A stretch of 64,000 nt of DNA from an uncultured Thermoleophilia bacterium. Its GTDB lineage: Bacteria; Actinomycetota; Thermoleophilia; UBA2241. Under the pieces are notes generated by a model. The model was not told the DNA's origin. It was given only the letters and a program-made list of their open reading frames with translations, and searched no databases. Below, piece by piece: positions 759 to 29,803 of this stretch (within the stretch, counting starts at the first letter, position 1; the number at the start of each line of letters is the position of its first letter). The position numbers and the translations under genes are program-made. Location of the stretch: assembly GCA_963715985.1 (NCBI GenBank), contig CAVQSP010000014.1, positions 544,001 to 608,000 on the forward strand, read 5' to 3'.

Positions 759-1381
759 GCGCACGTCCGACCTTCAACATCCTCATCTCCGGCGTCGGCG
801 GCCAGGGCGTGGTGCTGGCCAGCTACGTGCTCAGCCGCTGCGCCCTGGCCGAGGGCTACGACGTCAAGCAGAGCGAGGTCCACGGCATGGCCCAGCGCGG
901 CGGCTGTGTGACCAGCCACCTGCGCTTCGGCGACAAGGTCTACTCGTCGCTCATCACGCCCGGCACGGTGGACGTGCTGCTCTCCTTCGAGTCCGTGGAG
1001 GCGCTCCGCTACGTGCACTGGCTGAAGCCCGGCGGCCTGCTGGTCTACAACATGACGCGCGTGAACCCGAGCACCGTCTCGTCCGGGGCCGAGGAATACC
1101 CGGAGGGCCTGGCCGAGCGCATCGCGGAGGCCTGGCCCAACGTGCGCGCCCTGGACGCCAGCGCGCTGGCCGCCGAGGCCGGCACCGTCAAGGCGGCCAA
1201 CGTCGTGATGCTGGGAGCCATGGCGAGCGCGCTGCCCTTCGCGCCCGAGACGCTCGAGGACATCATCCGCCGCTCGGTGCCTCCGAAGACGGTCGACGTG
1301 AACCTCAAGGCGTTCCAGCTCGGCCGCGCCGTGCAGTCGGGCACGAGCGACGAGGCCGTGCCGGCCGCCGCCGGCGCATGA
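755..1381 (+). CDS. iorB: Indolepyruvate:ferredoxin oxidoreductase beta subunit
   Basis: GVGGQG, SEVHGMAQRGG, ANVVMLGA; ATGA overlap with iorA. Confidence 0.93.
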   Translation: MSARPTFNILISGVGGQGVVLASYVLSRCALAEGYDVKQSEVHGMAQRGGCVTSHLRFGDKVYSSLITPGTVDVLLSFESVEALRYVHWLKPGGLLVYNMTRVNPSTVSSGAEEYPEGLAERIAEAWPNVRALDASALAAEAGTVKAANVVMLGAMASALPFAPETLEDIIRRSVPPKTVDVNLKAFQLGRAVQSGTSDEAVPAAAGA

Positions 1382-1475
1382 CGGCGAAGTCCGGCGGGCG
1401 GCCGCAGGTGCAGCCGCATCACGATAGCACCGGCCACCGCGTGGGCCGCAGACTGAGCGAAAGGACACCGCCGCC

Positions 1476-2100
1476 ATGAAGAGCACCACCTGGCAGGACG
1501 ACCACCCCTGGACCCACATCGACTGGGAGTTGAACGACGTCACCCCGTACCAGCTCAACTGGTTCTGGTGCAACATGGAGAAGGGCGACTACCTCTGGCA
1601 CCCCAACCAGCACAAGGGCTTCGAGTGGTGGATCAGCCTGGAGGAGGCCGGCGGCCCTCTCGGCAGCGTCCACATCGCGCCGCAGACGTGGAACGACGGC
1701 GTCAAGATCCGCCCGTACATCAAGTTCCCGCAGGCTTGAGGACGTCCCCGCCGAGATCAGGGACCTCATCAAGTACGACCACGTCGTCATCGCCGGCGCG
1801 ATCAGCATCCTCGGCGACAACGTGAAGCCCGACGATCCTGTGCTCGGCTACCGCGTGCACCAGTGGCAGAAGAGCGACAACGGCTGCGTCGGCATGTCCT
1901 CGGCCGTAGAGGCCAAGGAGAACGCGGCCGACGACGGGCTCATCTGGGCCGCTCACGCCAACGAGGAGGTCGGCAACTGGGAGGTCTTCCTGCCGACGCT
2001 CGTGCGCCTCTACCGAGTGATCACGGATCCCGAGATCGCCCCGTACTACTCCTTCCGGGTGGAGGGCGTGGGTCGCGAGGCGCGGTACGCAGAGCTCTGA
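1476..2100 (+). CDS. Short divergent DAPG-hydrolase (PhlG/phloretin hydrolase) family protein; frameshift near 1737
   Basis: VTPYQLNWFW, YLWHPNQH, C-terminal AAHANEE...FLPTL; ORFs 1476-1739 and ~1738-2100 join. Confidence 0.65.
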
Positions 2101-7923: not shown

Positions 7924-8030
7924 GGACTACCGTGCCTGGCGCCGCCTCGTCCTCGCGCACTATCGCGGTGATGGCGTCCTTGAACGGGGCCAGTTGGGAG
8001 CCCCCGGCGCTGCCTGCGCGGCGGCTGGGC
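7924..8030 (-). mobile_element. Possible IS21-family IstA transposase remnant
   Basis: RRAGSAGGSQLAPFKDAITAIVREDEAAPGTVV resembles the IstA N-terminal S-K-L-x-P-F-K-x-x-I...P-x-T-V segment; no IRs or istB found. Confidence 0.35.
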
Positions 8031-8114
8031 AAGTCCGGCAGACTCCCGCCGCCCGCTCTTTCTGACGCAGGGTGGCGCAAGCCTTCCCGCGGCGCCGGCG
8101 CGCGTGCGAGGCCG

Positions 8115-9048
8115 TCAGGGTGCCGCGTCTGGCGGAACCGGCGGGCCTTCGCTCCACGAGCCGGTCGATGAGGCGCGGTAGTCGTCCAGCCGCCCGGTGA
8201 CATCGCCCTGACACCGGTACGCCGCCTCCACGGCGAGGAAGAGGAAGACGTGCGTCAGCATGATGTCGCGCTGGTCGTACTGGTCGTCCCAGGCCGCGCG
8301 CATGGCGACCTGCTCGATGGCGCCGTAGAGGCTGTAGGCCATGAGCTCGTCGGAGACCGGGGGAGAGGCTGGCCTGGGCCGCAGCGCGGCGAGGTCGGCG
8401 GCGGGCCCGGCGGCGATGAGGCGCAAGCGCCTCCTGCACGGCGGCGCGGGTCTCCGCGTCTTCCTGAAGGGCCTCCGCGCGCGCCAGGCCGAGCAGGTCG
8501 GGGCTCAGGCGCTGCAGGCCCCAGAACGCGTAGGTCCGCATGATGAGCCGCACGACGGGGTCGGGCTCCTGCGCCAGCGGCGGCTCGATGAGGCCGCTCA
8601 TCCAGCGCACGAACACGTTGAACGACTCGATGAACAGCTGCCGCTTGGTGGCGAATTGCGTGTAGAACAGCGGAGGCGTGACGCCGGCCTCCGTGATGAT
8701 GTCGGCGAGGCGGGTGCGTTTGTACCCCTTGCGCGCGAACTGGCGCGCCGCCGCCTGCAGGATCGCGGCGCGCGTCTCCGCGGCGCGCCGCGCCACGAGG
8801 TCGGGCTCGGCCGCGGTCTGGCGCTCGAGGAGCGGGCGGATGCTCGTCTTGATGGCCTCGAGGTCGGCGCCGGCGTGCTTGAGCCGGCGGATCTCCCCGA
8901 GCAGCTCGACGTGCACATCGCTGTAGAGGGCGCGGCTGGCGGCGGCCTTCTGGGCGGCCGGCAGCAGGCCCTCGCGCACGTAGAAGTAGATCGTGCTGCG
9001 CGGCGTGCTCGTGGCCGCTTCGAGCTCCGTGATCGTGAGCGCCTTCAC
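8115..9048 (-). CDS. MerR-HTH + TetR fusion transcriptional regulator #1; frameshifts near 8425 and 8175
   Basis: LTITELE...RSTIYFYVREGLLP...RALY (MerR) followed by TRAAILQAAARQFARKGY..TRLADI...FYTQFATKRQLF (TetR). Confidence 0.85.
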
Positions 9049-9222: not shown

Positions 9223-9477
9223 ATGAACACCGTGACGATCGACTTCGAGGCGTGCACCGGCTGCAAGACGTGCTACCTGGCCTGCTTCGCCGACGTCATC
9301 CGCTGGGACGCCGAGGCCAAGCGGCCCATCGTCGCGTACCCGGAGGACTGCGTGCGCTGCAACGTCTGCGAGATCAACTGCAAGGATGAGGCGATCAACG
9401 TGGTCGCCGACTGGGACATGGACTTCCCGCCGGTCATCGAGCGCGGCTTCCCGTACACGGTAGGAGGCAAGCGATGA
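9223..9477 (+). CDS. 2x[4Fe-4S] ferredoxin, AprB-like
   Basis: CTGCKTCYLAC...YPEDCVRCNVCEINC; ATGA overlap with the next gene. Confidence 0.88.
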   Translation: MNTVTIDFEACTGCKTCYLACFADVIRWDAEAKRPIVAYPEDCVRCNVCEINCKDEAINVVADWDMDFPPVIERGFPYTVGGKR

Positions 9478-11190
9478 CCGTCCTCGAGGATCTGGGCCGG
9501 GTCGAGTCCGCCGACGTGCTCGTCATCGGCGGGGGCATCGGCGGGCTCGTTGCCGCGGTGGCCGCCAAGGAGAAGGACCCGGACGCCGACGTGCTGGTCG
9601 TCGAGAAGGCGAGCTCCGGCTGGGCCGGCCAGGCCAACAAGGGCGCCGGCGTGTGGTGGTACCTGGCGCCCGAGGACGATGTGGACCGCTTCGTGCAGTT
9701 CCACGTCGAGCACATCGGCCACTACATCGAGGACCAGGAACTGCTCGCCGACTTCGGCCGCCAGAGCCTGGCCACTCTGGAGCGCATGGACGGATGGACC
9801 GGCAAGTTCCAGCGCCGTGACGACGGGCAGTTCATCCACAAGCGCTTCAAGCCGTTCCTGCCCTGGAGCCTCACGGGCGCGGACCTCGACTTCATGCGCC
9901 CGCTCAAGCGCACCGCCCGCAAGCTGGGAGTGCGCTTCATCGACAAGACGTCGCTCACCGACCTGCTGACCGACGGCGGGCGCGTCGCCGGCGCCGTCGG
10001 GTTCAGTCTGCTGGACGGCAGCCCTCTCGTGGTGCAGGCCCCCGCCGCCGTCATCGCCACCGGCGGCCAGAGTTACCGCATCATGGGCATGTGGAGCTGC
10101 CAGCGCGGCGACGGGCTGGGCATGGCCTGGCGCGCCGGCGCGCAGATGCGCAACGCCGAGTGGGGGCCGTTCGCCCAGCTCGCCGGCAAGAAGGGCAAGG
10201 AGCCGCTCATCGGCTCCGAGGACGCGCTGTACAACGCCTGGCACGAGAAGCTCTCGCCGCGGTTCCGCGACGAGCTCGCGCCCGACGTCTGCGGCATGAC
10301 GAGCGCCGTGTGGTACCAGCAGATGGTGGCCGGCAACGGCCCGCTGGTGACGTTCCACCCAGAGAACTGGATGCTCGCCAACACCACGGAGGACCTGGAG
10401 GGCGGCACCGTGTGGGACCGCCCGGTGGCCATCAAGTTCTGGGAGACGCTCATCAGCCGGGTGCGCAGCGCCGACCCGCCGGGCGCCTTTCTCGAGGTGT
10501 TCCCGGCGGTCCTCGGCGAGCTCTCGCCGATCAAGGTGGATCACGGCATGGCGACGACGGTGCCCGGCCTGTTCGCCTGCGGCAACGCCTGCTACAACGG
10601 CTCCGGCTTGCCCGGCGCCGTGCCGGCCTCGCCCGGGCGCATGCGCGGGTCCGGCCTCTTCGGCGCCACCTGGATGGGCATCCGCGCCGGCGAGTCGGCG
10701 GTGGGCGCCGCCGGCGGCGCACAGGCCGACGCGATGCAGGCGGAAGCGCTCGTACGCGACGCGCTCGCGCCCCTCGAGCGCACGGACGGCGTGCCGGCGA
10801 TGGAGCTGGTGCGCGCCGTCCAAGACGGCCGTGAACCCGGTCGGCTACTCGATCTACAAGAGCGAGGAGCGCATGACCGAGGCGCTCCAGATGGTCCTTG
10901 ACGTCAAGGAGCGCCTCCCCCAAGTCGCGGCCACCGATCCGCACTACCTGGTGGCCGCCCACGACGCCCGCAACATGGCGCTGAGCGCCGAGCTCTTCTA
11001 CCGCACGGCGCTGGAACGCAAGGAGTCGCGCGGCTGGTTCATCCGCGAGGACTACCCCGAGCGCGACGACGCCGAGTGGCTCAAGTGGGTCAACGCCGAG
11101 CCCGACGGCGACGGGATGCGCATCTGGACCGAGGACGTCCCCGTCGCCGACTACCCGTTCCAGCCCGACCGCCCCCGAGAGGAGCTGAGC
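9474..11190 (+). CDS. FAD-dependent oxidoreductase, AprA/SdhA-Frd superfamily; frameshift near 10826, stop uncertain
   Basis: DVLVIGGGIGG, IATGG, RGDGLGMAWRAGA, TTVPGLFACG, ALERKESRG...REDYPERDD. Confidence 0.85.
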
Positions 11191-12088: not shown

Positions 12089-12871
12089 ATGCTCAAGAGC
12101 ATCGTGATGATGGACCTGCCCATCGACGACATCGCGCCGATGGAACGCTGGTACTACGAGTCGCACTCGTCGGAGATCTCGCGCCGGTACGGCCCGTGGC
12201 TGCAGCGCCACGAGAGCTACGTGGCGCTCGACGCGCCCGAGGACGCGCGCCGGTTCGGCTTCTACAACTGGCGCGTCACCGAGACCTACTGGCGCGAGAT
12301 GCCGGAGTCCGGGGCCAAAGGCGCGTACTGCTTCACGCCGGCCCCGGTCTGGAACCCCGTCGCCACCTGCACCGTCCCAGCGCAGCCGGACAACGACTTC
12401 TTCGGCTGGGACGGGTTCTCCACGGACGGCGCCAGCATCCGCTGGTACATCCTGTTCCGGTATCCCCTCGGGGTACGCCTCAAGGACGGCGAGGACTGGT
12501 TCGTCAACGTGCACGCCCCGGAGGTGTGCAGGCAGCCGGGGCTCAAGCGCTTCTTCAGCTACAAGGTCGAGCAGGCGGCGATCCCGCTGCCCGGCATGTG
12601 GCACCCGGACGCCACGCCGCCGCAGGACATGATGATGGTGCAGTGGGACCGCGTGGTGGAGCTCTGGTACCCGAGCTTCAGTGCCTGGCGCAAGGCGGTC
12701 ATCGAGGAGCCACCGGCCTACACGGCACCGGAATGGGCGACCGACGACTTCTACAAGGACGGCCATGCCACGTACCCGTTCTTCAAGCCGGGCGTGGACT
12801 TCGTGAGCACGTTCCTGCTCGAGCGCCCCGCCGACGAGTTCCTGCGCGACACGCGCTACTACCGGCCATGA
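12089..12871 (+). CDS. Bacterial chalcone-isomerase-like protein (Eubacterium ramulus CHI type)
   Basis: RWYYESH...RFG...TE..W, RYPLGV...GEDWF, VVELWY...W.K, PEWA...YPFFKP pattern matches recalled E. ramulus CHI. Confidence 0.7.
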   Translation: MLKSIVMMDLPIDDIAPMERWYYESHSSEISRRYGPWLQRHESYVALDAPEDARRFGFYNWRVTETYWREMPESGAKGAYCFTPAPVWNPVATCTVPAQPDNDFFGWDGFSTDGASIRWYILFRYPLGVRLKDGEDWFVNVHAPEVCRQPGLKRFFSYKVEQAAIPLPGMWHPDATPPQDMMMVQWDRVVELWYPSFSAWRKAVIEEPPAYTAPEWATDDFYKDGHATYPFFKPGVDFVSTFLLERPADEFLRDTRYYRP

Positions 12872-12932: not shown

Positions 12933-13772
12933 ATGGCCGTCAGGACACTCACGCCCGAAGAAGAGGCCAAGCCGTACGCCAAGTACTACCACCGCCCGGT
13001 CACGCCGCCGGACGCGGACATGATCGCGCTGATCCAGCCCGACGTGCAGATCGACCCGGCCCTGGCGCTGCCGCCGGAGCGCATCAGCGACCTGCTCGAC
13101 CCCGGCTACCACGAGGTCGAGACCGGCTGGTGCATCATGCCCAACGGCAGCGGCTACCTGGCCGTGCACAACCGCATGCCCGGCGTGACCGTCGAGATGC
13201 TCGACTGGTGGTTCTGGTGGCACTCCATGGCCAGCGTGCGCTACGGCCTCTGGTACCCGCCGGGCCACTACGGCATCTCGATCAGCAAGAAGTCGCGCGC
13301 CAAGCTCAGTGACCCGAGCGTGCCGGCCAAGGAGAAGATCTACGGCCGCACCGACCACGTGGTCGAGGACATCGGCACGGGCGCGGAGGACATCTACATC
13401 TGCTTCTGCGCCCCCGAGGAGATGGGCTTCGACATGAGCCGATTCCACGCGCCGAACGTCGCGGCCGTGTACGGCGGCTACGGCTTCGACCAGCCGCAGG
13501 GCGCCAAGCCGAGCGACATCCGGGCGCCCGCCATCATGTGTCACTTCATCCGTGAGCTTCCGGACGGGGACGGCATCGAGTTCCGCTCGCGCTTCTGGAT
13601 GGGCTACAAGCTCATCGAGGGGCAGCCCGTGCTCGCCATCCCGCCCGGTGAGTCGGTGCCGGCCGATGTGCCCTACGGCCTCGCCGATCACAACGTCAGC
13701 GAGTACTGCAACCTCAAGTCGCTGCTGCCGGAGATCTGGGCCGAGTTCAAGGACGCCGACCCGGCGCTGTGA
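12933..13772 (+). CDS. Phloretin hydrolase/PhlG family C-C hydrolase #2
   Basis: TPEEEAKPYAKYY, MPGVTVEMLDWWFWWH, RYGLWYPPGH, VVED, RSRFWMGY, HNVSE; intact ORF. Confidence 0.9.
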   Translation: MAVRTLTPEEEAKPYAKYYHRPVTPPDADMIALIQPDVQIDPALALPPERISDLLDPGYHEVETGWCIMPNGSGYLAVHNRMPGVTVEMLDWWFWWHSMASVRYGLWYPPGHYGISISKKSRAKLSDPSVPAKEKIYGRTDHVVEDIGTGAEDIYICFCAPEEMGFDMSRFHAPNVAAVYGGYGFDQPQGAKPSDIRAPAIMCHFIRELPDGDGIEFRSRFWMGYKLIEGQPVLAIPPGESVPADVPYGLADHNVSEYCNLKSLLPEIWAEFKDADPAL

Positions 13773-13794: not shown

Positions 13795-14589
13795 ATGCCA
13801 ATGAAGCTGATGGCGGCGTCACGCCGCCGGCCCGGGCTGACCAGGGCCGAGTACTTCCGCTACATCGAGCACTACCACGGCACCGTGGCGCGCCTCGAGC
13901 GCTTCAAGATCGAGAAGTACATCCAGAACCACGTGATCGACGGCGCGTTCGGCGTGATCTCCGACGCGGGCGGCCACAAGAACAAGGTCGCCGACAGGGA
14001 CGCCGTCGTCGAGCTCCACTTCGACAGCTTCCGCGACATGCTGGCCACCCTCGAGCCCGAGGGCGTGACCGTGTCGCGCGCCAACCAGGACGGCCGTTTC
14101 TTCGCCGACGAGCCGACCAACATCATCGTGATGGCGGAAGAGACCGAGCTGCCCGTCGCCAAGCCCATGCCGGACTTCAACCCCGGGCTCGGCGAGCCGG
14201 GCAGGGGTGCGCTCAAGGTGATGCAGTACATCATGCGCCGGCCCGAGGTCTTCCCCCAGGACTTCCACCGGCTGTGGCGCCGCGCCCACGACGAGGCTCT
14301 GGCGGCGAGCCCCTACGCCAACGACATGTTCCGCAAGATCGTCGTGAGCAAGCGCTCGCGCGTGAACGACAACGACGCCGCGGCCCGCGCGCACTTCAAG
14401 ATGGTCGACCCGCCGGTGTACGACCTCGTGGTGTCGTTCGTCCTCGACAGCATCGAGCAGGCCGGCGCCTTCCGGCAGTACTTCGACGCCATCACCAGCA
14501 GCCCGCTGGTGTTCGCCGACTGGTCGGAGTCGTTCTTCCTCTACGTGAGGCCGGTGCGGATCATCGACGACGCGCCGCCGAAGGAGTAG
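13795..14589 (+). CDS. Duplicated EthD-domain protein
   Basis: RRRPGLTRAEYFRYIEHYH...KYIQNH...DAVVELHFDS...DGRFFAD; second repeat KVMQYIMRRP...WRRAH. Confidence 0.78.
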   Translation: MPMKLMAASRRRPGLTRAEYFRYIEHYHGTVARLERFKIEKYIQNHVIDGAFGVISDAGGHKNKVADRDAVVELHFDSFRDMLATLEPEGVTVSRANQDGRFFADEPTNIIVMAEETELPVAKPMPDFNPGLGEPGRGALKVMQYIMRRPEVFPQDFHRLWRRAHDEALAASPYANDMFRKIVVSKRSRVNDNDAAARAHFKMVDPPVYDLVVSFVLDSIEQAGAFRQYFDAITSSPLVFADWSESFFLYVRPVRIIDDAPPKE

Positions 14590-14593
14590 TGCC

Positions 14594-15502
14594 ATGCCGG
14601 ACATGACCAAGCCTGAATGGGCGGCCCAGAAGACCTACGACGAGAACCGGGCGTTCAGCAAGACCAAGGCCACCCGTCCGCCGCTCACGCCCGAGGAAGA
14701 GAAGCGCCCGTTCGCCAAGTACTACTACGACGAGATCCCGCAGCCGGATCCCGTGCACTACGCGATCATGGACGAGCCGATGGACCCGGCCGACGCGTTC
14801 TACCCGGAGGACATCAGCCGCCTCCTCGACGTGCCGGCGCTCGAGGCGGGGGTGGAGATCGGATGGTGCAACCTGCCCAATGGGGCCGGCTACATCGCCA
14901 ACCGGATCCACTACCCGGAGTTCACCGCCGACATGGTCGACTGGTGGTTCGCGTGGCACCCGCTCGAGGACCTGCGGTACCGCATCTGGTACCCGCCGCA
15001 GCACGCCGGCATCATGCTGAGCCCCATCGACCGTGCTCGCATCCTCGATGACTCCATCCCCAACCGTGAGAAGAACTGGGGCGTCGTCCACAACGTGACT
15101 GAGAACTGCGACAACGGCTACGAGAACATCGACATCGCCTTCCGCTCGCCGGCCGACGCGGGCTTCGACATGGAGAAGTTCGACAAGGTGGCGGCGACCA
15201 TGGCGGGTGGCATGGGCTGGGCCGTGACGGTCGACAAGACCGACGAGTCCATCACCGCGCCGGCGCTCATGGTCCACATGTTCTACGACGCTCCGGAGGG
15301 AGGGCTGATCCACCGCACGCGCTTCTGGATGGGCTACCGCTTCAACGAGGAGGACAAGCCCGAGCTGTGCCTGCCGCCTGGCGTGAGCGTGCCGGTCGAG
15401 GCCGTCCAGGGCCTGGCGCGGCACAACGTCAAGGAGTACACGCGGTGGCGCGAGTTCCTGCCGAGGATCTACGCGGAGCTGGGCCCGGGGATGTACTGCT
15501 AG
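14594..15502 (+). CDS. Phloretin hydrolase/PhlG family C-C hydrolase #3
   Basis: DMVDWWFAWHPLEDLRYRIWYPPQH, VTEN, RTRFWMGY, HNVKE. Confidence 0.9.
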   Translation: MPDMTKPEWAAQKTYDENRAFSKTKATRPPLTPEEEKRPFAKYYYDEIPQPDPVHYAIMDEPMDPADAFYPEDISRLLDVPALEAGVEIGWCNLPNGAGYIANRIHYPEFTADMVDWWFAWHPLEDLRYRIWYPPQHAGIMLSPIDRARILDDSIPNREKNWGVVHNVTENCDNGYENIDIAFRSPADAGFDMEKFDKVAATMAGGMGWAVTVDKTDESITAPALMVHMFYDAPEGGLIHRTRFWMGYRFNEEDKPELCLPPGVSVPVEAVQGLARHNVKEYTRWREFLPRIYAELGPGMYC

Positions 15503-16732: not shown

Positions 16733-18248
16733 ATGAGTGTGAACGACATCGTCAATGGGCTCGCCGCGCTCGTCGGCCGCGACTACGTCGCGGCCGACCC
16801 GGCGAGCCTCCAGGAGTACGCGGGCGACGAGAGCTTCGTCCCGCGGCTGACGCCGTGGGCCGTGGCCCGGCCGGGCTCGGCCCAGGAAGTGCAGAAGGTC
16901 GTCGCCTGGGCCAACGAGACGGCGACGCCGCTCGTGCCGGTCAGCTCCGGCGGGCCGCACTTCCACGGCGACACGGTGCCCAGCGTGACGGGCGCCGTGA
17001 TGCTCGACCTGCGGCGGCATGGACAGGATCCTGCGTATCGACCGGCGCAACCGCATGGCGGTCATCGAGCCGGGCGTCACGTATCCCCAGCTGCAGGCCG
17101 CCCTGGCCGAGCAGGGCATGCGCGTGACGCCGCCGCTGCTGCCGCGGGCGAACAAGTCGGTCGTCGCGAGTCTGCTCGAGCGCCAGCCGACGCTCATCCC
17201 GCGCTACAACTTCCACCTGCCCGAGCCGCTGCGCAGCTGCGGCGTGGTGTGGGGAAACGGCGAGACCATGTTCACCGGCGAGGCCGGCAGCGGCCCCGAG
17301 TCGCTGGAGGCGCAGTGGCAGGCCGGCGGCGTGCAGGCCGACCCCAAGGGCCCGGCGCAGACCGACTTCTTTCGCCTGCTCACGGGCGCGCAGGGGACGA
17401 TGGGCGTCGTCACGTGGGCGGCGGTCAAGTGCGAGCTGCTGCCCGCCGCCCACGAGTTCGCGTTCGTGACGGCCGCCGACCTCGACGACCTGGTCGACCT
17501 CACCTACCGGCTCGACCGCATCCGGCTCGGCGATGAGGTGTTCATCGTCAACGACGCCTACCTGGAGCGGCTGCTTGCCTCGCAGCATGGGGGCAAGGTC
17601 GATCCCGACGAGCTGCCGGCGTGGACGCTCGTCCTTGGGTTCGGCGGGCGCGAGCACTTCGCCGCGGAGCGGGTCGCCGTCCAGAAGAAGGACGCGGCAT
17701 CGCTGGCCGGGGAGTTCGGCCTGACGCTGCAGCAGTCGATCCCCGGTGCGCTGACCGGTGACATCGCCGCCGCGATCGGCGCCTGCTGCGAGACGCCATG
17801 GAAGCTGGCGGCGGAGGGCGCCTGCGCCGACGTGTTCTTCGTGACCACTCTCGAGGAGGCGCCCGCGTTCGTCGAGATCGCGCACATCGTGGCCGACGGG
17901 TACGGGTACGCCGCGGAGGACGTCGGCGTGTACATCCAGCCCCAGCACCAGGGCGTGACGCACCACGTCGAGTTCAGCCTGCCCTACGACGGCTCGGACG
18001 CGGCCACCCGGGAGGACATGAAGGGCCTGTCCGACGACCTCGCCGCCAATCTCATGGCCGCCGGCGCCTACTTCAGCCGGCCGTACGGCTCGTGGGCTCA
18101 GCCCGTCTACAACCGCGATGCCGCCTCGCGCGACGCCCTGCGCAAGGTCAAGGCGATCTTCGACCCGGCCGGGAGTCATGAACCCCGGCAAGCTGTGCTT
18201 CGGGGCGCCGGATCGCGCCCGCGCGCGCTCGTCGAAAAGGAGGCCTGA
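16733..18248 (+). CDS. FAD-linked oxidase (VAO/PCMH family, FAD_binding_4); frameshifts near 17018 and 18172-18220
   Basis: ARPGSAQEVQKVV, VPVSSGGPH, MDRILRID...IEPGVTY, GAQGTMGVVT, KAIFDP...MNPGKL. Confidence 0.82.
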
Positions 18249-18249
18249 C

Positions 18250-19570
18250 ATGGCCCTCACCGACTATCGCGCCGACGCCATGCGCTGCACGCGCTGCAGC
18301 TACTGCAAGTGGATCCCCTTCGACCTCGTGAAGAGCCACCGCTTCGCCAAGGGCTGCCCATCGATCGAAGCCGGCAAGTTCCACGCCTACTCGGCCGGCG
18401 GCCGGCTCGTCACCATGCGCTCGCCTCCTCGACGGCCGCAGCGAGGTCACCGACCAGGTCGTCGACATCGCCTTCCGCTGCCAGCTCTGCGGCAACTGCG
18501 ACGTGGCCTGCAAGATGTGCCGCTACGACATGGAGCCCATCCTCGCGCTGCGCGAGCTGCGCGCGCACCTGGTCGAGATGGACCGGGTGCCGGAGTCGTA
18601 CCGGCCGCTCATCGAGCGCACCCGCGCCGGCCTCGCCGGCAAGGGCAAGACCCCGGCCGAGCGCAACGCCTGGGCTGAAGGGCTGGGCCTCGTGGACCCG
18701 ACCGTCGAGCCCGTCGACGTCGTCTTCTTCGCGGGCTGCAAGTACTCCCTCGAGGAGTCGCTGCGGGAGACCGTGCGCACGCAGGTGCGCGTGCTGCAGG
18801 CCGCCGGCCTCAGCGTGGGCATCATGCCCGAGGCCGGCTGCTGCGGCGGCCTCGCCGACAAGATGGGCTATCGTGACGAGGCCGCCAGGCCGGCACGAAG
18901 ATGCTCGAGCAGTGGGCCGCCGCCGGTGTGAAGACGGTGGTCACGCCGTGCGCCGACTGCCGGCACACGTTCACGCGCGCCTACCCGAAGTACGAGGGCG
19001 CGTCGGAGGACATGCCGGAGATCCTGCACACCGTCGAGTGCGTCGACAGGCTCGTGAAGGACGGGCGGCTCGAGCTCACCGCGCCCGTCCCGCTCACCGT
19101 CACCTACCACGACCCCTGCAACCTCGGTCGTCAGGGCGAGCCCTACACGCAGTGGGAAGGGGTCGAGAAGAAGATCTACGGCCAGGCGGTCGTCTACGAC
19201 CCGCCGCGACCGCGCCACAACGGCGCCAACGGCGTCTATGACGCGCCGCGCGACGTGCTCGCCGCCATCCCCGGCGTGGAGCTCGTCGAGATGGAGCGCA
19301 GCCGCGAGGCCGCCTGGTGCTGCGGCGCCGGCGGCGCCTGCCGCGAGGCGTTCCCCGAGTACTCGGCCGCGACGGCCGCAGAGCGCGTGGAGGAGGCGGC
19401 GTCGACCGGTGCTGAGGCGCTCGTCACCGCCTGCTCGCGCTGCGAGCTCAACTTCGCGGAGGCCGTGGCCGCCGACACCGCGTCGGGCGGCCCCGGCGCC
19501 GATCTGCAGGTCCACGACGTGCTGGAGCTCGTCGCGCTCTCCGCCGGCATCAGGGAAGGAGGCCTCATGA
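18250..19570 (+). CDS. Fe-S oxidoreductase, GlcF/HdrD-like (2x[4Fe-4S] + two CCG domains); several frameshifts
   Basis: CTRCSYC...CP, CQLCGNCDVAC, FFAGC, GCCG, TPCADC, YHDPCNLGR, WCCGAGG, TACSRC. Confidence 0.85.
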
Positions 19571-21269
19571 GCCCGAGCTACGCCAAGCCCACCACGCCGG
19601 CCGAGACGGCCGCCGCCTCGGCGCAGATCACCGACGAGGCCTACCGCGCCCTCGAGGACATCGTCGGCGCCGACAACGTCTCGCGTGACGCCGCCATCCT
19701 CGACACGTACGCGTTCCAGTGGCTCGCCGAGCTGGTGCGCCCCGACCAGAGCCACTACATGCCGCGTCCGGCGGCCGTCGTGCTGCCCGGATCGACCGAA
19801 GAGGTCCAGGCGATCGTCCGCCTGGCCAACAAGTACGGCCTGAAGGTGAAGCCGCACGGGACCGGCTGGTACCACTGGTCCGGTCCCATCAAGGACTCCG
19901 ACGCGACGCTGCAGCTCGACCTGCGCCGCATGGACGCCATCGTCGAGATCGACGAGCAGAACATGTACGCGGTCGTCGAGCCGTACGTGATCGCCGCGCA
20001 GCTGCAGGCGGAGATCCTCCCGCTGGGCCTCAACCTCAACATCCCCGGCGTGGGCTGCTCCAGCTCGATCGTCGCCAGCGCCTGCGCTTACCACGGCGCC
20101 GGTCCGGACACCTACTACATGGGCGGCAACGCCGAGAACGTGCTCGGCATGGAGTGGGTCACGCCCGAGGGCGAGATCGTCCGCACCGGCTCGCTCGGCT
20201 AGCGGCGACGGCTGGTTCTGCAGCGAGGGCCCCGGCCCGTCCGTGCGCGGCATCTGCCGGGGCACGCTCGGCAGCCGCGGCGGCCTTGGCGTGTACACGA
20301 AGTGCGCGGTCAAGCTCGCCCCGCACTTCGGCCAGACCGAGTGGAACGTCGAGGGCACGTTGCCCGCGTACCGCCTGCCCGTGCACGAGAACCTGCGCGT
20401 CTACACGCTCGCGGTCCCGGACTGGGACGCCTGGGCGGACATCTACTACAGGATCTACGACAACGAGATCGGCTACATCTTCCACCGCCAGTTCAACCTC
20501 GCCGGCGCCGACCTCGGCCCCGCGTTCTGGCTCATGTACAACGACGCATCCAAGGTCGCTCTCGGACGTGCCTGAGCTGGTCGCCGATCCGGAGGTCGCC
20601 GCGCTCACCGAGGAGATGCGCATCAGCTTCCAGCTCATCCTCGCAGGGCGCTCCAAGGACGACATCGAGCTGCAGGACAAGATCCTCGACGCCATCCTCG
20701 AGGAGGTCGGCGGCTGGAAGGTCGAGCGCTTCTGCGAGCAGGATATGGCCGAGTTCACCAACGTCTACCTGCAGCGGCTCGGCCACAAGCACGTCAACTT
20801 CGTCTGGGCCGGCGGCTACATCGGCAGCTGGATGCAGTTCGGCACGCCGGACTGGGTCAAGGGCTACGTGCCCACGGCCATCGACGGCCTTGCGCGGGAC
20901 GCCAAGGACGGTCTGCTCGTGCAGTGCGGGGGAGACGCGATGATGGGCTCCGGCAGCGGCATCCCGCTGGGCGGCGCCACCGGCCTCGAGCAGTTCGTCA
21001 GCTACGACCCGGACGACCAGGCCTCGACCAAGGCCGGCATCAAGCACATGGAGGACGCGGTCAAGGATGCCGCCTCCATCAGCTACCCGCCGGGCAAGGA
21101 GTTCCTCTACCTGCAGATCGGCTGGACCGACGAGCAGATCTGGGACGCGCTCGCGCACGCCAAGCAGCCGCAGGTGTTCCACTACCAGCGGCAGATCAAG
21201 GAAGCATTCGACCCCAACGACGTCGGCGACAGGATGTATCCCACGCTGCCGGCCGACCGGGGAGAGTGA
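19568..21269 (+). CDS. Second FAD-linked oxidase (VAO/PCMH family); frameshifts near 20200 and 20545
   Basis: PAAVVLPGSTEEVQAIVRLAN, DLRRMD.IVEIDE, EWVTPEGEIVRTGSLG, IKEAFDPN; AGGAGG RBS. Confidence 0.82.
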
Positions 21270-27832: not shown

Positions 27833-27856
27833 TGACCGGAGGATGGGGAGGACCGC

Positions 27857-28079
27857 TTGAACGCCATCCAGATCGACTTCGACGCCTGCACCGGCTGTCA
27901 GACGTGCTACGAGGCCTGCTTCATGGACGTCTTCCGCTGGGACGCCGCCGCGGAGAAGCCCATCGTCGCCTATCCGGAAGACTGCGTGGAGTGCAACAAG
28001 TGCGAGCTCGAGTGCCCGGAGGAGTGCGTCACGGTCGATCCCCGACTTCGCCGGCATGTACTGGCCGCAGGTGGTGTGA
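27857..28079 (+). CDS. 2x[4Fe-4S] ferredoxin, AprB-like, paralogue of 9223; frameshift near 28040
   Basis: IDFDACTGCQTCYEACFMDVFRWD...YPEDCVECNKCELECP; GGAGG RBS, TTG start. Confidence 0.85.
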
Positions 28080-28080
28080 C

Positions 28081-29803
28081 GTGGCGACGCTGGAATCACT
28101 CGGCACCGTGCTCTCCGCCGACCTCCTGATCGTCGGCGGCGGCATCGCCGGCCTCGCCTGCGCCATCCGCGCCAAGGAGGTCGATCCCGAGGTCGACGTG
28201 CTCGTCCTCGACAAGGTCGTCTCCGGCTGGGGCGGCAAGGCCAACAAGGGCGGCGGCAACATCGTCTTCATGGACCCCGCCGACGGCATCGACACCTTCC
28301 TCGACTTCCACCTGCACAACGTCGGCGAGTTCCTCGAGGACCAGGAGCTCCTGCGCGACTTCGCCAACGAGTCGCGCGGCAACCTCGAGCGCCTCGAGAG
28401 CTGGGGCGTGCACATCTACCGCGACGAGGCCGGCGAGCCCAAGTACGTGCGCTGGCTGCCCGAGCAGCCGTGGCGCATGGCCGTCCTCGACCAGGACCTC
28501 ACGCTCAACATGGCCAAGCACGCGCGCCAGCTCGGCGTGCGCTTCCGCGACCGCGTGGAGATCGTCGACCTGCTCAAGGACGGCGACGCGCGTCTGCGGC
28601 GCCGTCGGCTTCGGCATGCTCGAGGGCGAGTGCATCATCGTGCAGGCCGGCGCCGTCGTGCTGGCCAACGGCAACCAGTGCTTCAAGCTGATGCCGCGCT
28701 GGTCCAGCGCCGGCGGTGAGGGCATCGCCGCCGCCTACCGCGCCGGGGCCGCGATGCGCGGCGCCGAGTTCGGCAACTTCATCAACTGGGTGTTCACCGA
28801 TACCAAGGAAGTCTGCCAGGGCGCCGAGGACGTGCTCTACAACAGCAAGGGCGAGAACATCTCCAAGCGCGTGCGCCCCACCCTCGAGTCCGACGTGGCC
28901 TCCAAGGAGGTCGTCGAGTGGTGGCGCGAGATGCAGGCCGGCAACGGCCCCATCTGCGCCAACATGGCGGAGAACTACGTGAACAACGAGATCGTCCCCG
29001 CCTTCCACGAGGACAAGCTGGCCGTGCGCCCGGTCAGCATGAAGTTCTGGGGCCTGACGATCGGCAAGGCCATGGCCGCCTCCACGGTGCGCGGCCCCAT
29101 GCAGCCGGTGATGCCGGGCCTCAACGCCGAGCTCTCGCCGCTCAAGGTCGACCACGAGATGGCGACCAGCCTGCCCGGGCTCTTCGCCATCGGCGACGCC
29201 TGCTATGCGGGCTCCTGCCTCGCCGGCGCCGTGCCGGCTCCCCCCGGGCGCATGCGCGGCTCCGGCCTCGGCTTCGCCACCTTCTCCGGCGTGCGCTGCG
29301 CCCCGGCGGCGGTGGCGGCGGCCAGAGCCGGGGCGGCGACGCCCGACGCGGCGCAGGCGGAGGCGCTCAAGGCGCGCGTCTTCGCGCCGCTCGGGCGCAG
29401 CGGCATGGCGGCCCCCGAGCTGGTGCACGCGGTGCAGGACGTCATGGCGCCCGTGGGCTACAGCATCTACAAGAGCGCCGAGCGTATGAACGAGGCGCTC
29501 GAGAAGGTGCTGGCGCTCAAGGAGCAGGTGCCGCGGCTCGCCGCCCCGGACCCGCACTACCTGGCCGCCTGCCACGTCGCCGAGGCCATGGTCCTCGGCG
29601 CCGAGCTGTTCTACCGCGCCTCCCTCGCTCGCGAGGAGTCGCGCGGCTGGCACCTGCGCGAGGACTTCCCGGAGCGCGACGACGCCGGCTTCCTCAAGTG
29701 GATCGAGCTGCGCGACGCCGGCGGCGAGATGGCGGTGTCGCTGCACGACGTGCCGATCGAGAGGTATCCCGTGCAGGCAGACGGGAGCGAGGTCCCGGCT
29801 TGA
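28081..29803 (+). CDS. FAD-dependent oxidoreductase, AprA/SdhA superfamily, paralogue of 9474; frameshift near 28590
   Basis: DLLIVGGGIAG, SGWGGKANKGGG, PGLFAIGD, PGRMRGSGL, REESRG.HLREDFPERDD. Confidence 0.85.

What the first reader, a model, noticed from the sequence alone, without database searches (positions are those of the whole stretch)
12089..12871. Divergent bacterial chalcone isomerase homologue between two hydrolase genes
Seen: intact 260-aa ORF. Compared with my recollection of E. ramulus CHI, His26 in RWYYESH matches the catalytic His33, TEHHW becomes TETYW, the long lid insert is absent, and the second domain has its own His (WFVNVHAPE). Automated pipelines are likely to miss or mislabel it. 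Inference: a CHI variant with altered chemistry or two active sites.
Basis: partly seen in the sequence, partly recalled or inferred. Interest (0 to 1): 0.7.

Follow-up and report, generated by a model that had tools for sequence, protein, structure and literature searches.

The report
Orphan chalcone-isomerase cousin beside phloretin hydrolases
This intact gene encodes a relative of the gut-bacterial chalcone isomerase from a published sister branch reported not to cyclise chalcones, and its rebuilt active site and steady place beside carbon-carbon hydrolase genes suggest it likely opens or rearranges a different plant flavonoid during oxygen-free breakdown.

Summary
The sequence observation holds: an intact 260-aa ORF under purifying selection, Pfam Chalcone_N above cut-off, and a predicted fold that superposes on Eubacterium ramulus CHI (Z 24.9). 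His26 matches His33, His73 is Thr66, the lid is gone, and His142 is real. It is not a new family. It is 78% identical to OFW59574.1, listed in branch B (sub-branch 17) of Meinert et al. 2021, who report no chalcone-cyclising activity for branch B (data not shown; chalcones only). Only 3 of 14 mapped pocket residues match CHI, so it should not be filed as a CHI. Added here: His142-Glu145 is the internal-repeat twin of His26-Glu29, kept in 65/72 clade members and 0/120 branch-A proteins; Tyr48 becomes His41; all 24 close relatives have a phloretin-hydrolase-like gene directly downstream. Best reading: a His-base ring-opening isomerase, most likely for flavanonols/auronols, feeding those hydrolases. 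The substrate is inferred. Two working active sites are possible but less likely. The scan held no look-alike note on other DNA; notes on neighbouring genes agree.

The parts
12089..12871 (+). CHI-fold protein P0001 (PF18232; Meinert branch B, sub-branch 17). Tandem EthD-like repeat with His26-Glu29 and His41 in domain 1, His142-Glu145 in domain 2, no lid, and a clade-specific LPGxW loop
11194..12058 (+). Upstream phloretin/DAPG-hydrolase-like gene (PF18089), frameshifted between about 11380 and 11500 in this assembly; its 3' end also differs from relatives
12933..13772 (+). Downstream phloretin/DAPG-hydrolase-like gene (PF18089); best PDB match is phloretin hydrolase 5xey, E 6e-38
13795..14589 (+). 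Tandem EthD protein (PF07110, two stretches), present in 21 of 24 close loci
14594..15502 (+). Third phloretin/DAPG-hydrolase-like gene (PF18089)
9223..9477 (+). Small ferredoxin (Fer4 families), AprB-like by position
9474..11178 (+). AprA/SdhA-like flavoprotein (PF00890 + PF02910), frameshifted in this assembly; candidate reductase (inferred)
7960..9048 (-). Divergent MerR-HTH/TetR regulator
770..1333 (+). 2-oxoacid:ferredoxin oxidoreductase beta/gamma subunit (PF01558), end of an ACD-IorAB-like operon that starts before the window; context only
1461..2097 (+). Short PhlG-like hydrolase family member, frameshifted here; context only

Best explanation
The protein is a chalcone-isomerase-fold member of the published but uncharacterised branch B, and it likely works as a histidine-base ring-opening isomerase on a flavonoid other than the plain chalcones, most likely a 3-hydroxy flavanonol or an auronol. 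Shown: the fold, the His26-Glu29 pair at the His33-Asp36 positions, a rebuilt pocket (His41 for Tyr48, Arg62 for Gln69, Arg33 for Gln40, Thr66 for His73, no lid), and an operon with three phloretin-hydrolase-like genes. Inferred: His26 removes the C3 proton, the heterocycle opens to an alpha-hydroxychalcone/1,2-diketone, and His41 and the arginines steady the enolate. The open form is then either split by a neighbouring hydrolase to phloroglucinol plus an arylpyruvate, or first reduced by the AprAB-like flavoprotein. The arylpyruvate would go through the nearby IorAB-like enzyme and CoA ligase to arylacetate. Domain 1 is probably the main site; His142 is an ancestral repeat residue with at most a secondary role.
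For: Membership: the L010 protein is OFW59574.1, 78% identical, in sub-branch 17 of Table S1. IQ-TREE puts P0001 in that clade at 100/98 and separates branch A, which holds assayed CHI2 and CHI10, by a 1.44 branch at 100/100. Catalytic pair: His26 72/72, His plus i+3 acid 71/72; Palm 2022 says Asp36 polarises His33. Pocket residues fixed in the clade: His41 69/72, Arg62 71/72, Arg33 72/72, against Tyr 120/120 and Gln 111/120 in branch A. Context: a PF18089-like gene directly downstream in 24/24 loci at >=70% identity and on both sides in 20/24. A PhlG-superfamily gene lies in the fetched flanks of 14/41 mid and 8/14 far loci; IOR alpha in 0/24, 9/41 and 4/14. Among 60 relatives, 12/12 genomes with the gene have PF18089, against 4/48 without it (kin are not independent). 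A pyrogallol transhydroxylase homologue lies about 5 kb before the window (E 1.5e-262). The published negative assay used chalcones only. Arylpyruvate is the proposed product of alphitonin cleavage.
Against: No activity was measured, and the substrate rests on gene context alone. IOR is absent from all 24 close loci and lies 11 kb away in this genome. Most of the mid-identity clade members (27 of 41) have no PhlG-like gene in the fetched DNA, although many of those loci are short. The sister sub-branch 16 shows almost no hydrolase link (PhlG profile in 1 and short-form profile in 2 of 36 loci of 5 kb or more, a set that also holds other branch-B members). Branch B is reported to lack CHI activity, which may mean the ring-opening chemistry is lost altogether. 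No coordinates were available, so pocket size and geometry were not measured.
Confidence: 0.42

Rival explanations
1. It is an ordinary but slow chalcone isomerase: it opens flavanones to chalcones, the AprAB-like flavoprotein reduces them to dihydrochalcones, and the hydrolases cleave these.
For: His33 and Asp36 equivalents are kept. His73 is described as non-catalytic and a lid deletion cost only five-fold. The genome has no PF00724 (Fcr/enoate-reductase-type) match (88.8% complete) and only this one PF18232 gene. The flavoprotein is present in 11/24 close loci.
Against: Branch B is reported without CHI activity (data not shown, and the proteins tested are not named in the text I could read). 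Only 3/14 pocket residues match. Branch-16 genes sit beside high-scoring, branch-A-like PF18232 genes in L084 and L090, which suggests non-redundant jobs.
Confidence: 0.18
2. It uses the same His-base chemistry on another scaffold or on stereochemistry: ring opening of isoflavanones toward O-desmethylangolensin-type products, or a two-base (His26/His41) epimerase/racemase of flavanones or flavanonols.
For: The pocket is rebuilt and has a second fixed His in domain 1 (69/72). Three paralogous hydrolases suggest several acyl-phloroglucinol substrates. VOC-family genes occur in 6 distant loci. The C-ring cleavage step to O-DMA is described without an enzyme in the review passage seen.
Against: No isoflavone-pathway gene was identified nearby. 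The arylpyruvate-type neighbours (IOR/ACD, a TPP enzyme, AOR) fit 3-hydroxy flavonoids better. The VOC-racemase link is recalled, not tested.
Confidence: 0.17
3. Both domains are catalytic: His26-Glu29 and His142-Glu145 run two steps or two substrates, for example ring opening and then tautomerisation or re-closure.
For: The two halves align at probability 98.3, E 2.4e-14, with H26 = H142. His plus i+3 acid in domain 2 is found in 65/72 clade-17, 66/89 other branch-B and 0/120 branch-A proteins. Three relatives have Lys at 26 but keep His142. A 70/72-conserved LPGxW loop is inserted in domain 2.
Against: The Tyr48-equivalent in domain 2 is Phe (63/72). Lining positions 121, 123 and 190 are conserved at 0.36, 0.51 and 0.25, against 0.94, 0.75 and 1.0 for their domain-1 twins. 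His142 is lost in 3/72 and 19/89, His26 in 0/72 and 3/89. R188, E191 and W193 are invariant in branch A too, so they look structural.
Confidence: 0.13
4. It is a non-isomerase EthD-type protein (dehydratase, cofactor-free oxygenase, metal-binding hydrolase) or a ligand-binding helper in the same pathway.
For: The next-best folds are EthD/ABM-type proteins. 54/57 clade members outside this subclade have His at position 8, which would give a His8/His26/His41 triad. Branch B is reported inactive as CHI.
Against: This subclade has Met8 in 15/15. The CHI fold stands far above the rest (Z 24.9 vs 12.1). The His-acid pair is intact.
Confidence: 0.1

Closest known systems
Branch B, sub-branch 17 of bacterial CHI-like proteins (Meinert et al. 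2021, PMC8361940; OFW59574.1, OJX04627.1, WP_105292327.1)
   Same: 78% and 54% identical to two of the three listed members; same clade at 100/98; same missing lid helices and extra domain-2 loop that the paper describes.
   Different: Nothing fundamental. This subclade has Met instead of His at CHI position 14 and is tied to long PhlG-type hydrolases. Table S1 prints H14 and Y48 for OFW59574.1, whereas the stored sequence has M and H. The text read does not discuss the second His or gene context.
Eubacterium ramulus chalcone isomerase CHIera (PDB 4d06, 3zph; Pfam PF18232) and assayed branch-A CHIs
   Same: Two-domain ferredoxin-like fold (Z 24.9, rmsd 2.5 A), His33, Asp36-type acid, Thr71 and Trp75; role upstream of a phloretin hydrolase (inferred here).
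   Different: About 23-24% identity. No lid, Tyr48 to His, His73 to Thr, Gln69 to Arg, Gln40 to Arg, Phe50 to Ser, Ser37 to Ile. It has a His-Glu pair in domain 2 that 0/120 branch-A proteins have.
EthD family (PF07110) dimeric alpha+beta barrel proteins
   Same: Each half resembles an EthD module: domain 2 matches 2ftr at Z 9.1, and some relatives hit PF07110 weakly or above cut-off.
   Different: P0001 itself has no PF07110 hit at E<=0.01; it is a fused tandem repeat.
Gut flavonoid pathway FLR-CHI/Fcr-Phy of E. ramulus and Flavonifractor plautii
   Same: CHI-fold gene with phloretin-hydrolase homologues and phloroglucinol-pathway genes nearby.
   Different: Thermoleophilia-type host (closest relatives), three hydrolase paralogues, an AprAB-like flavoprotein, a tandem EthD gene, and no PF00724 reductase found in this 88.8% complete genome.

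Membership tests
Pfam PF18232 Chalcone_N / bacterial CHI fold | HMM score above gathering cut-off | tested here: met
   36.5 bits vs 25; 38.5 in the genome search
Pfam PF18232 Chalcone_N / bacterial CHI fold | Two ferredoxin-like domains superposable on CHIera | tested here: met
   Predicted model: Foldseek E 2.8e-18; VIA Z 24.9, rmsd 2.5 A, 235 residues
True bacterial CHI (Meinert branch A) | Catalytic His33 with polarising Asp36 | tested here: met
   His26 and Glu29
True bacterial CHI (Meinert branch A) | Conserved pocket Tyr48, His73, Gln69, Ser37, Phe41, Phe50 | tested here: not met
   His41, Thr66, Arg62, Ile30, Tyr34, Ser43; 3 of 14 mapped positions match
True bacterial CHI (Meinert branch A) | Lid region (CHIera 106-130) and helices alpha3-5 | tested here: not met
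   34 residues between W68 and D103 vs median 70, range 64-83
True bacterial CHI (Meinert branch A) | Falls in the clade with assayed CHIs | tested here: not met
   Branch A 100/100 on a 1.44 branch without P0001; anchors CHI2 and CHI10 identified
True bacterial CHI (Meinert branch A) | Chalcone-to-flavanone and taxifolin-to-alphitonin activity | not testable with these tools
   Literature reports no chalcone activity for branch B, data not shown; flavanonols were not in the assay described
True bacterial CHI (Meinert branch A) | Hexamer | not tested
   No complex job was run
Meinert branch B, sub-branch 17 | Clade with OFW59574.1 and OJX04627.1 | tested here: met
Meinert branch B, sub-branch 17 | Extra loop in domain 2 and loss of lid helices | tested here: met
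   30 vs 13 residues between S157 and R188; lid absent
EthD family PF07110 | HMM score above cut-off | tested here: not met
   No hit for P0001 at E<=0.01; 20.9 bits vs 22 for the 78% orthologue

The most novel reading that the evidence does not exclude
Branch-B proteins are the ancestral, two-site form of the bacterial CHI fold, with a working His-Glu pair in each repeat. This one opens flavanonols or auronols and hands the open diketone to its neighbouring hydrolases, supplying the unassigned alphitonin-to-arylpyruvate step of anaerobic flavonol breakdown in soil and sediment bacteria. True CHIs would be a derived, lidded, single-site offshoot.
Probability: 0.13. Interest if true: 0.72.

Novelty: new member of a known kind. 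Interest (0 to 1): 0.42.

Why it matters
Branch B was set aside in 2021 as 'no CHI activity' and I found no later characterisation in my searches. Its members here span Actinomycetota, Proteobacteria, Chloroflexota, Desulfobacterota, Acidobacteriota and Bacteroidota records. The enzymes that take alphitonin to arylacetates are still described as hypothetical in the passages read. This locus names a testable set: one CHI-fold protein, three hydrolases, an EthD protein and a flavoprotein. It also warns that 'CHI' calls in soil and peat Thermoleophilia may be branch B and not chalcone isomerases. If both histidines work, it shows how a lidded single-site enzyme arose from a tandem repeat.

Tried and rejected
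1) Folding domain 2 alone from a single sequence failed (pLDDT 37.5) and was not searched. No model coordinates were available, so cavities were not measured. 2) A flavoprotein-hydrolase fusion (840 aa in L004) is rejected as a likely frameshift artefact, because the two genes are in separate frames or end in a stop in L003 and L008. 3) RNA evidence: the 7 runs listed held only 5-11% of sampled words. Contigs about 90% alike cover the gene in 3 of the 4 laid runs in the pieces shown; these are relatives, and DNA in the libraries was not excluded, so this is not counted. 4) ORF clustering of all six frames chained into one cluster and was replaced by direct profile and tblastn counts. 5) Pairwise BLAST of the short hydrolase family against the window's hydrolase was not significant (E 0.15); the profile comparison was (97.2%). 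6) Sub-branch 16 contexts, examined to test the isoflavone idea, showed mostly transporters and regulators and decided nothing. 7) NCBIfam gave no hit. 8) Literature: searches showed no paper characterising a branch-B protein; one search was swamped by chitinase papers, and subscription journals are mostly absent. Braune 2016 and a paper on methylmuconolactone methylisomerase could not be retrieved, so nothing rests on them directly. 9) No complex prediction was run because no binding claim is made.

Full report
Observation. Window 12089-12871 (+) is an intact 260-aa ORF, P0001. GC by codon position is 0.60/0.46/0.96 and dN/dS against eight relatives is 0.10-0.16. It hits Pfam PF18232 at 36.5 bits, cut-off 25, and nothing in NCBIfam. 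Its only significant PDB sequence matches are E. ramulus CHI chains (E 6e-11). A profile of 83 sequences (P0001 plus 82 of the 120 listed hits) reaches CHIera over its full length at E 7e-35. The AlphaFold2 model (pLDDT 92.3) matches 4d06 at Z 24.9, rmsd 2.5 A over 235 residues, with the next fold at Z 12.1 (Foldseek E 2.8e-18). His26 aligns with His33, TEHHW with TETYW, the lid is missing and His142 is present. The claim that pipelines miss it is only partly true: Pfam finds it, NCBI calls close relatives hypothetical, and some branch-A proteins carry the name acetyl-CoA hydrolase.

Placement in the literature. Meinert et al. 2021 (PMC8361940; whole main text read; supplement parts 1-4 of 5; figures not visible) split 88 CHI-like proteins into branch A, assayed active, and branch B. 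They describe branch B as having an extra loop in domain 2 and lost helices alpha3-5, with no CHI activity, 'data not shown'. The assay described follows chalcone loss at 384 nm, with five chalcones and no flavanonol. Which branch-B proteins were tested is not in the text I could read. Their sub-branch 17 lists OFW59574.1 and OJX04627.1. The protein of locus L010 is OFW59574.1 and the L038 cluster holds OJX04627.1; they are 78% and 54% identical to P0001, against 24% for assayed CHI2 and CHI10. In an IQ-TREE run on 40 chosen rows, P0001 lies in a clade with both (100/98) and branch A stands on a 1.44 branch (100/100). So the protein is a new member of a published, uncharacterised clade. Table S1 prints two residues for OFW59574.1 (H14, Y48) that differ from the stored sequence (M, H).

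Active-site anatomy. I aligned 286 proteins of 235-320 aa and dropped 5 with under 85% core coverage, leaving 120 branch A, 72 clade 17 and 89 others (two of the 'others' sit at the base of branch A). His26 is His in 120/120, 72/72 and 86/89. With the i+3 acid, the Asp36 that Palm et al. say polarises His33 (PMC9694015, parts 1-2 of 4 read), the counts are 119, 71 and 79. The rest of the pocket is rebuilt: Tyr48 is His41 in 69/72, Gln69 is Arg62 in 71/72, Gln40 is Arg33 in 72/72, and His73 is Gly, Cys, Thr, Ala or Ser. P0001 matches CHIera at 3 of 14 mapped pocket positions; CHI2 matches at 12. The W68-D103 span is 34 residues against a median of 70, and the S157-R188 span is 30 against 13, with an LPGxW motif in 70/72 clade members and in no other group. 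Against over-reading these losses: His73 is described as non-catalytic and deleting the lid cost only five-fold.

The second histidine. The two halves of branch-B proteins align at probability 98.3, E 2.4e-14, with H26 = H142, E29 = E145, H41 = F155 and R62 = R188. His plus acid in domain 2 occurs in 65/72 clade 17, 66/89 others and 0/120 branch A. Since it is the repeat twin of the universal His, the simplest inference is that it is ancestral and was lost in true CHIs; the tree is unrooted, so this is not shown. It is not peculiar to this protein. For a second site: the intact pair, and three relatives that have Lys at 26 but keep His142. Against: Phe at the Tyr48 position in 63/72, weak conservation at lining positions 121, 123 and 190 (0.36, 0.51, 0.25 against 0.94, 0.75, 1.0), and more frequent loss (3/72, 19/89). 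No coordinates were available, and a single-sequence model of domain 2 failed.

Context. The gene sits in a same-strand run: ferredoxin, AprA/SdhA-like flavoprotein, PF18089 hydrolase, P0001, hydrolase, tandem EthD protein, hydrolase. The flavoprotein and first hydrolase are frameshifted in this assembly and intact in relatives. The downstream hydrolase's best PDB match is phloretin hydrolase (E 6e-38). The genome scan confirmed 111 stretches, kept the best 80 and returned 79 loci; the closest are Thermoleophilia records. All 24 loci at 70% identity or more have a hydrolase within 300 bases downstream, and 20 have one upstream too; in L006 the upstream gap holds a divergent regulator-like ORF. 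Counting a short PhlG-like family (profile match 97.2%), a hydrolase is present in 14/41 mid and 8/14 far loci; IOR alpha in 0/24, 9/41 and 4/14; the CoA ligase in 6, 9 and 3. Loci range from 3 to 17 kb, so absences may be truncation, and kin are not independent. Among 60 related genomes, the 12 with this family all have PF18089, against 4 of the other 48. In the window's genome an ACD-IorAB-like operon ends at window 1333, followed by the short hydrolase and another EthD gene. A pyrogallol transhydroxylase homologue lies about 5 kb before the window. The genome, 88.8% complete, has one PF18232 gene and no PF00724 match. Loci fetched with a sub-branch-16 alignment rarely carry these partners, and two of them also hold a branch-A-like gene.

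Mechanism. Established: CHIera uses His33 to remove the C3 proton, which opens flavanones to chalcones and contracts taxifolin to alphitonin. Phloretin hydrolase cleaves the bond next to the A ring (passages). Alphitonin cleavage to phloroglucinol plus arylpyruvate is hypothetical (PMC11170127 section 19; 10.1101/2024.10.22.619724 passages). Inferred: P0001 keeps the base and changes the pocket, so it likely runs the same ring-opening chemistry on another substrate. The arylpyruvate-handling neighbours point to 3-hydroxy flavonoids. I give this 0.42, an ordinary slow CHI 0.18, isoflavanone opening or epimerisation 0.17, two working sites 0.13, and a non-isomerase role 0.10. A role somewhere in anaerobic flavonoid-type breakdown is much safer than any one substrate.

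Novelty. The family, fold and clade are in print. In paper searches I saw no characterisation of a branch-B protein, nor mention of the second His or the hydrolase link; subscription papers, including Thomsen 2015 (not read) and Braune 2016 (not held), may say more. Other papers seen as passages only: PMC8398226, PMC13515148, PMC11868195, PMC11572103. A peat study lists one Thermoleophilia gene as CHI, at low expression with and without catechin (PMC12203004, one supplement searched, cut when stored); I could not see its sequence. The scan's notes held no look-alike of this protein. Notes on neighbouring genes agree with links I had already found. Verdict: real, correctly spotted, a new member of a known but unexplained clade; interest 0.42.

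Noticed in passing
window 1461-2097 (+); L049:8996-9616; L038:14823-15440: A short (~207 aa) PhlG-like family, mostly below the Pfam cut-off, recurs beside clade-17 genes and IOR/ACD across phyla; profile match to the long hydrolases 97.2%.
   Followed up: partly
L048 and L049 (same contigs as L008 and L004): Close relatives carry a second clade-17 paralogue (53% identical) directly after IorAB; this genome lacks it at that spot and has only one PF18232 gene.
   Followed up: partly
window 16733-21269 (+): Two FAD_binding_4 subunits with CCG/Fe-S domains, frameshifted, found in 11/24 close loci. Could be an aryllactate dehydrogenase or a benzylic oxidase for catechin-to-taxifolin; speculation.
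   Followed up: no
window 28081-29776 (+), with a ferredoxin-like ORF near 27839-28012: A second AprA-like flavoprotein, 45-49% identical to an intact orthologue of the first, ahead of an ABC importer and B12-binding/URO-D-like genes.
   Followed up: no
clade 17 outside the P0001 subclade, e.g. L038:8001-8756: 54 of 57 members have His at position 8, giving a possible His8/His26/His41 metal-binding triad; the hydrolase-flanked subclade has Met in 15/15.
   Followed up: partly
proteins P0088, P0100, P0104: Three branch-B relatives replace the otherwise universal catalytic His with Lys while keeping the domain-2 His.
   Followed up: no
proteins P0147, P0155-P0158, P0195, P0221, P0249: A distant sub-family has N-terminal extensions that look like signal peptides, suggesting exported members; not tested with a predictor.
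   Followed up: no
L090:4840-7986 and L084:2969-7783: Sub-branch-16 genes lie in the same cluster as a branch-A-like PF18232 gene, in L090 with an SDR and a VOC gene.
   Followed up: partly
L038 and L040: In two proteobacterial loci the gene follows DUF1302-DUF1329-YCF48-like-MMPL genes and precedes EthD, MFS, a flavin oxidoreductase, SDRs, SnoaL and the short hydrolase.
   Followed up: no
G000:C14:527800-539000, before the window: Several molybdenum enzymes, one matching pyrogallol transhydroxylase at E 1.5e-262.
   Followed up: partly
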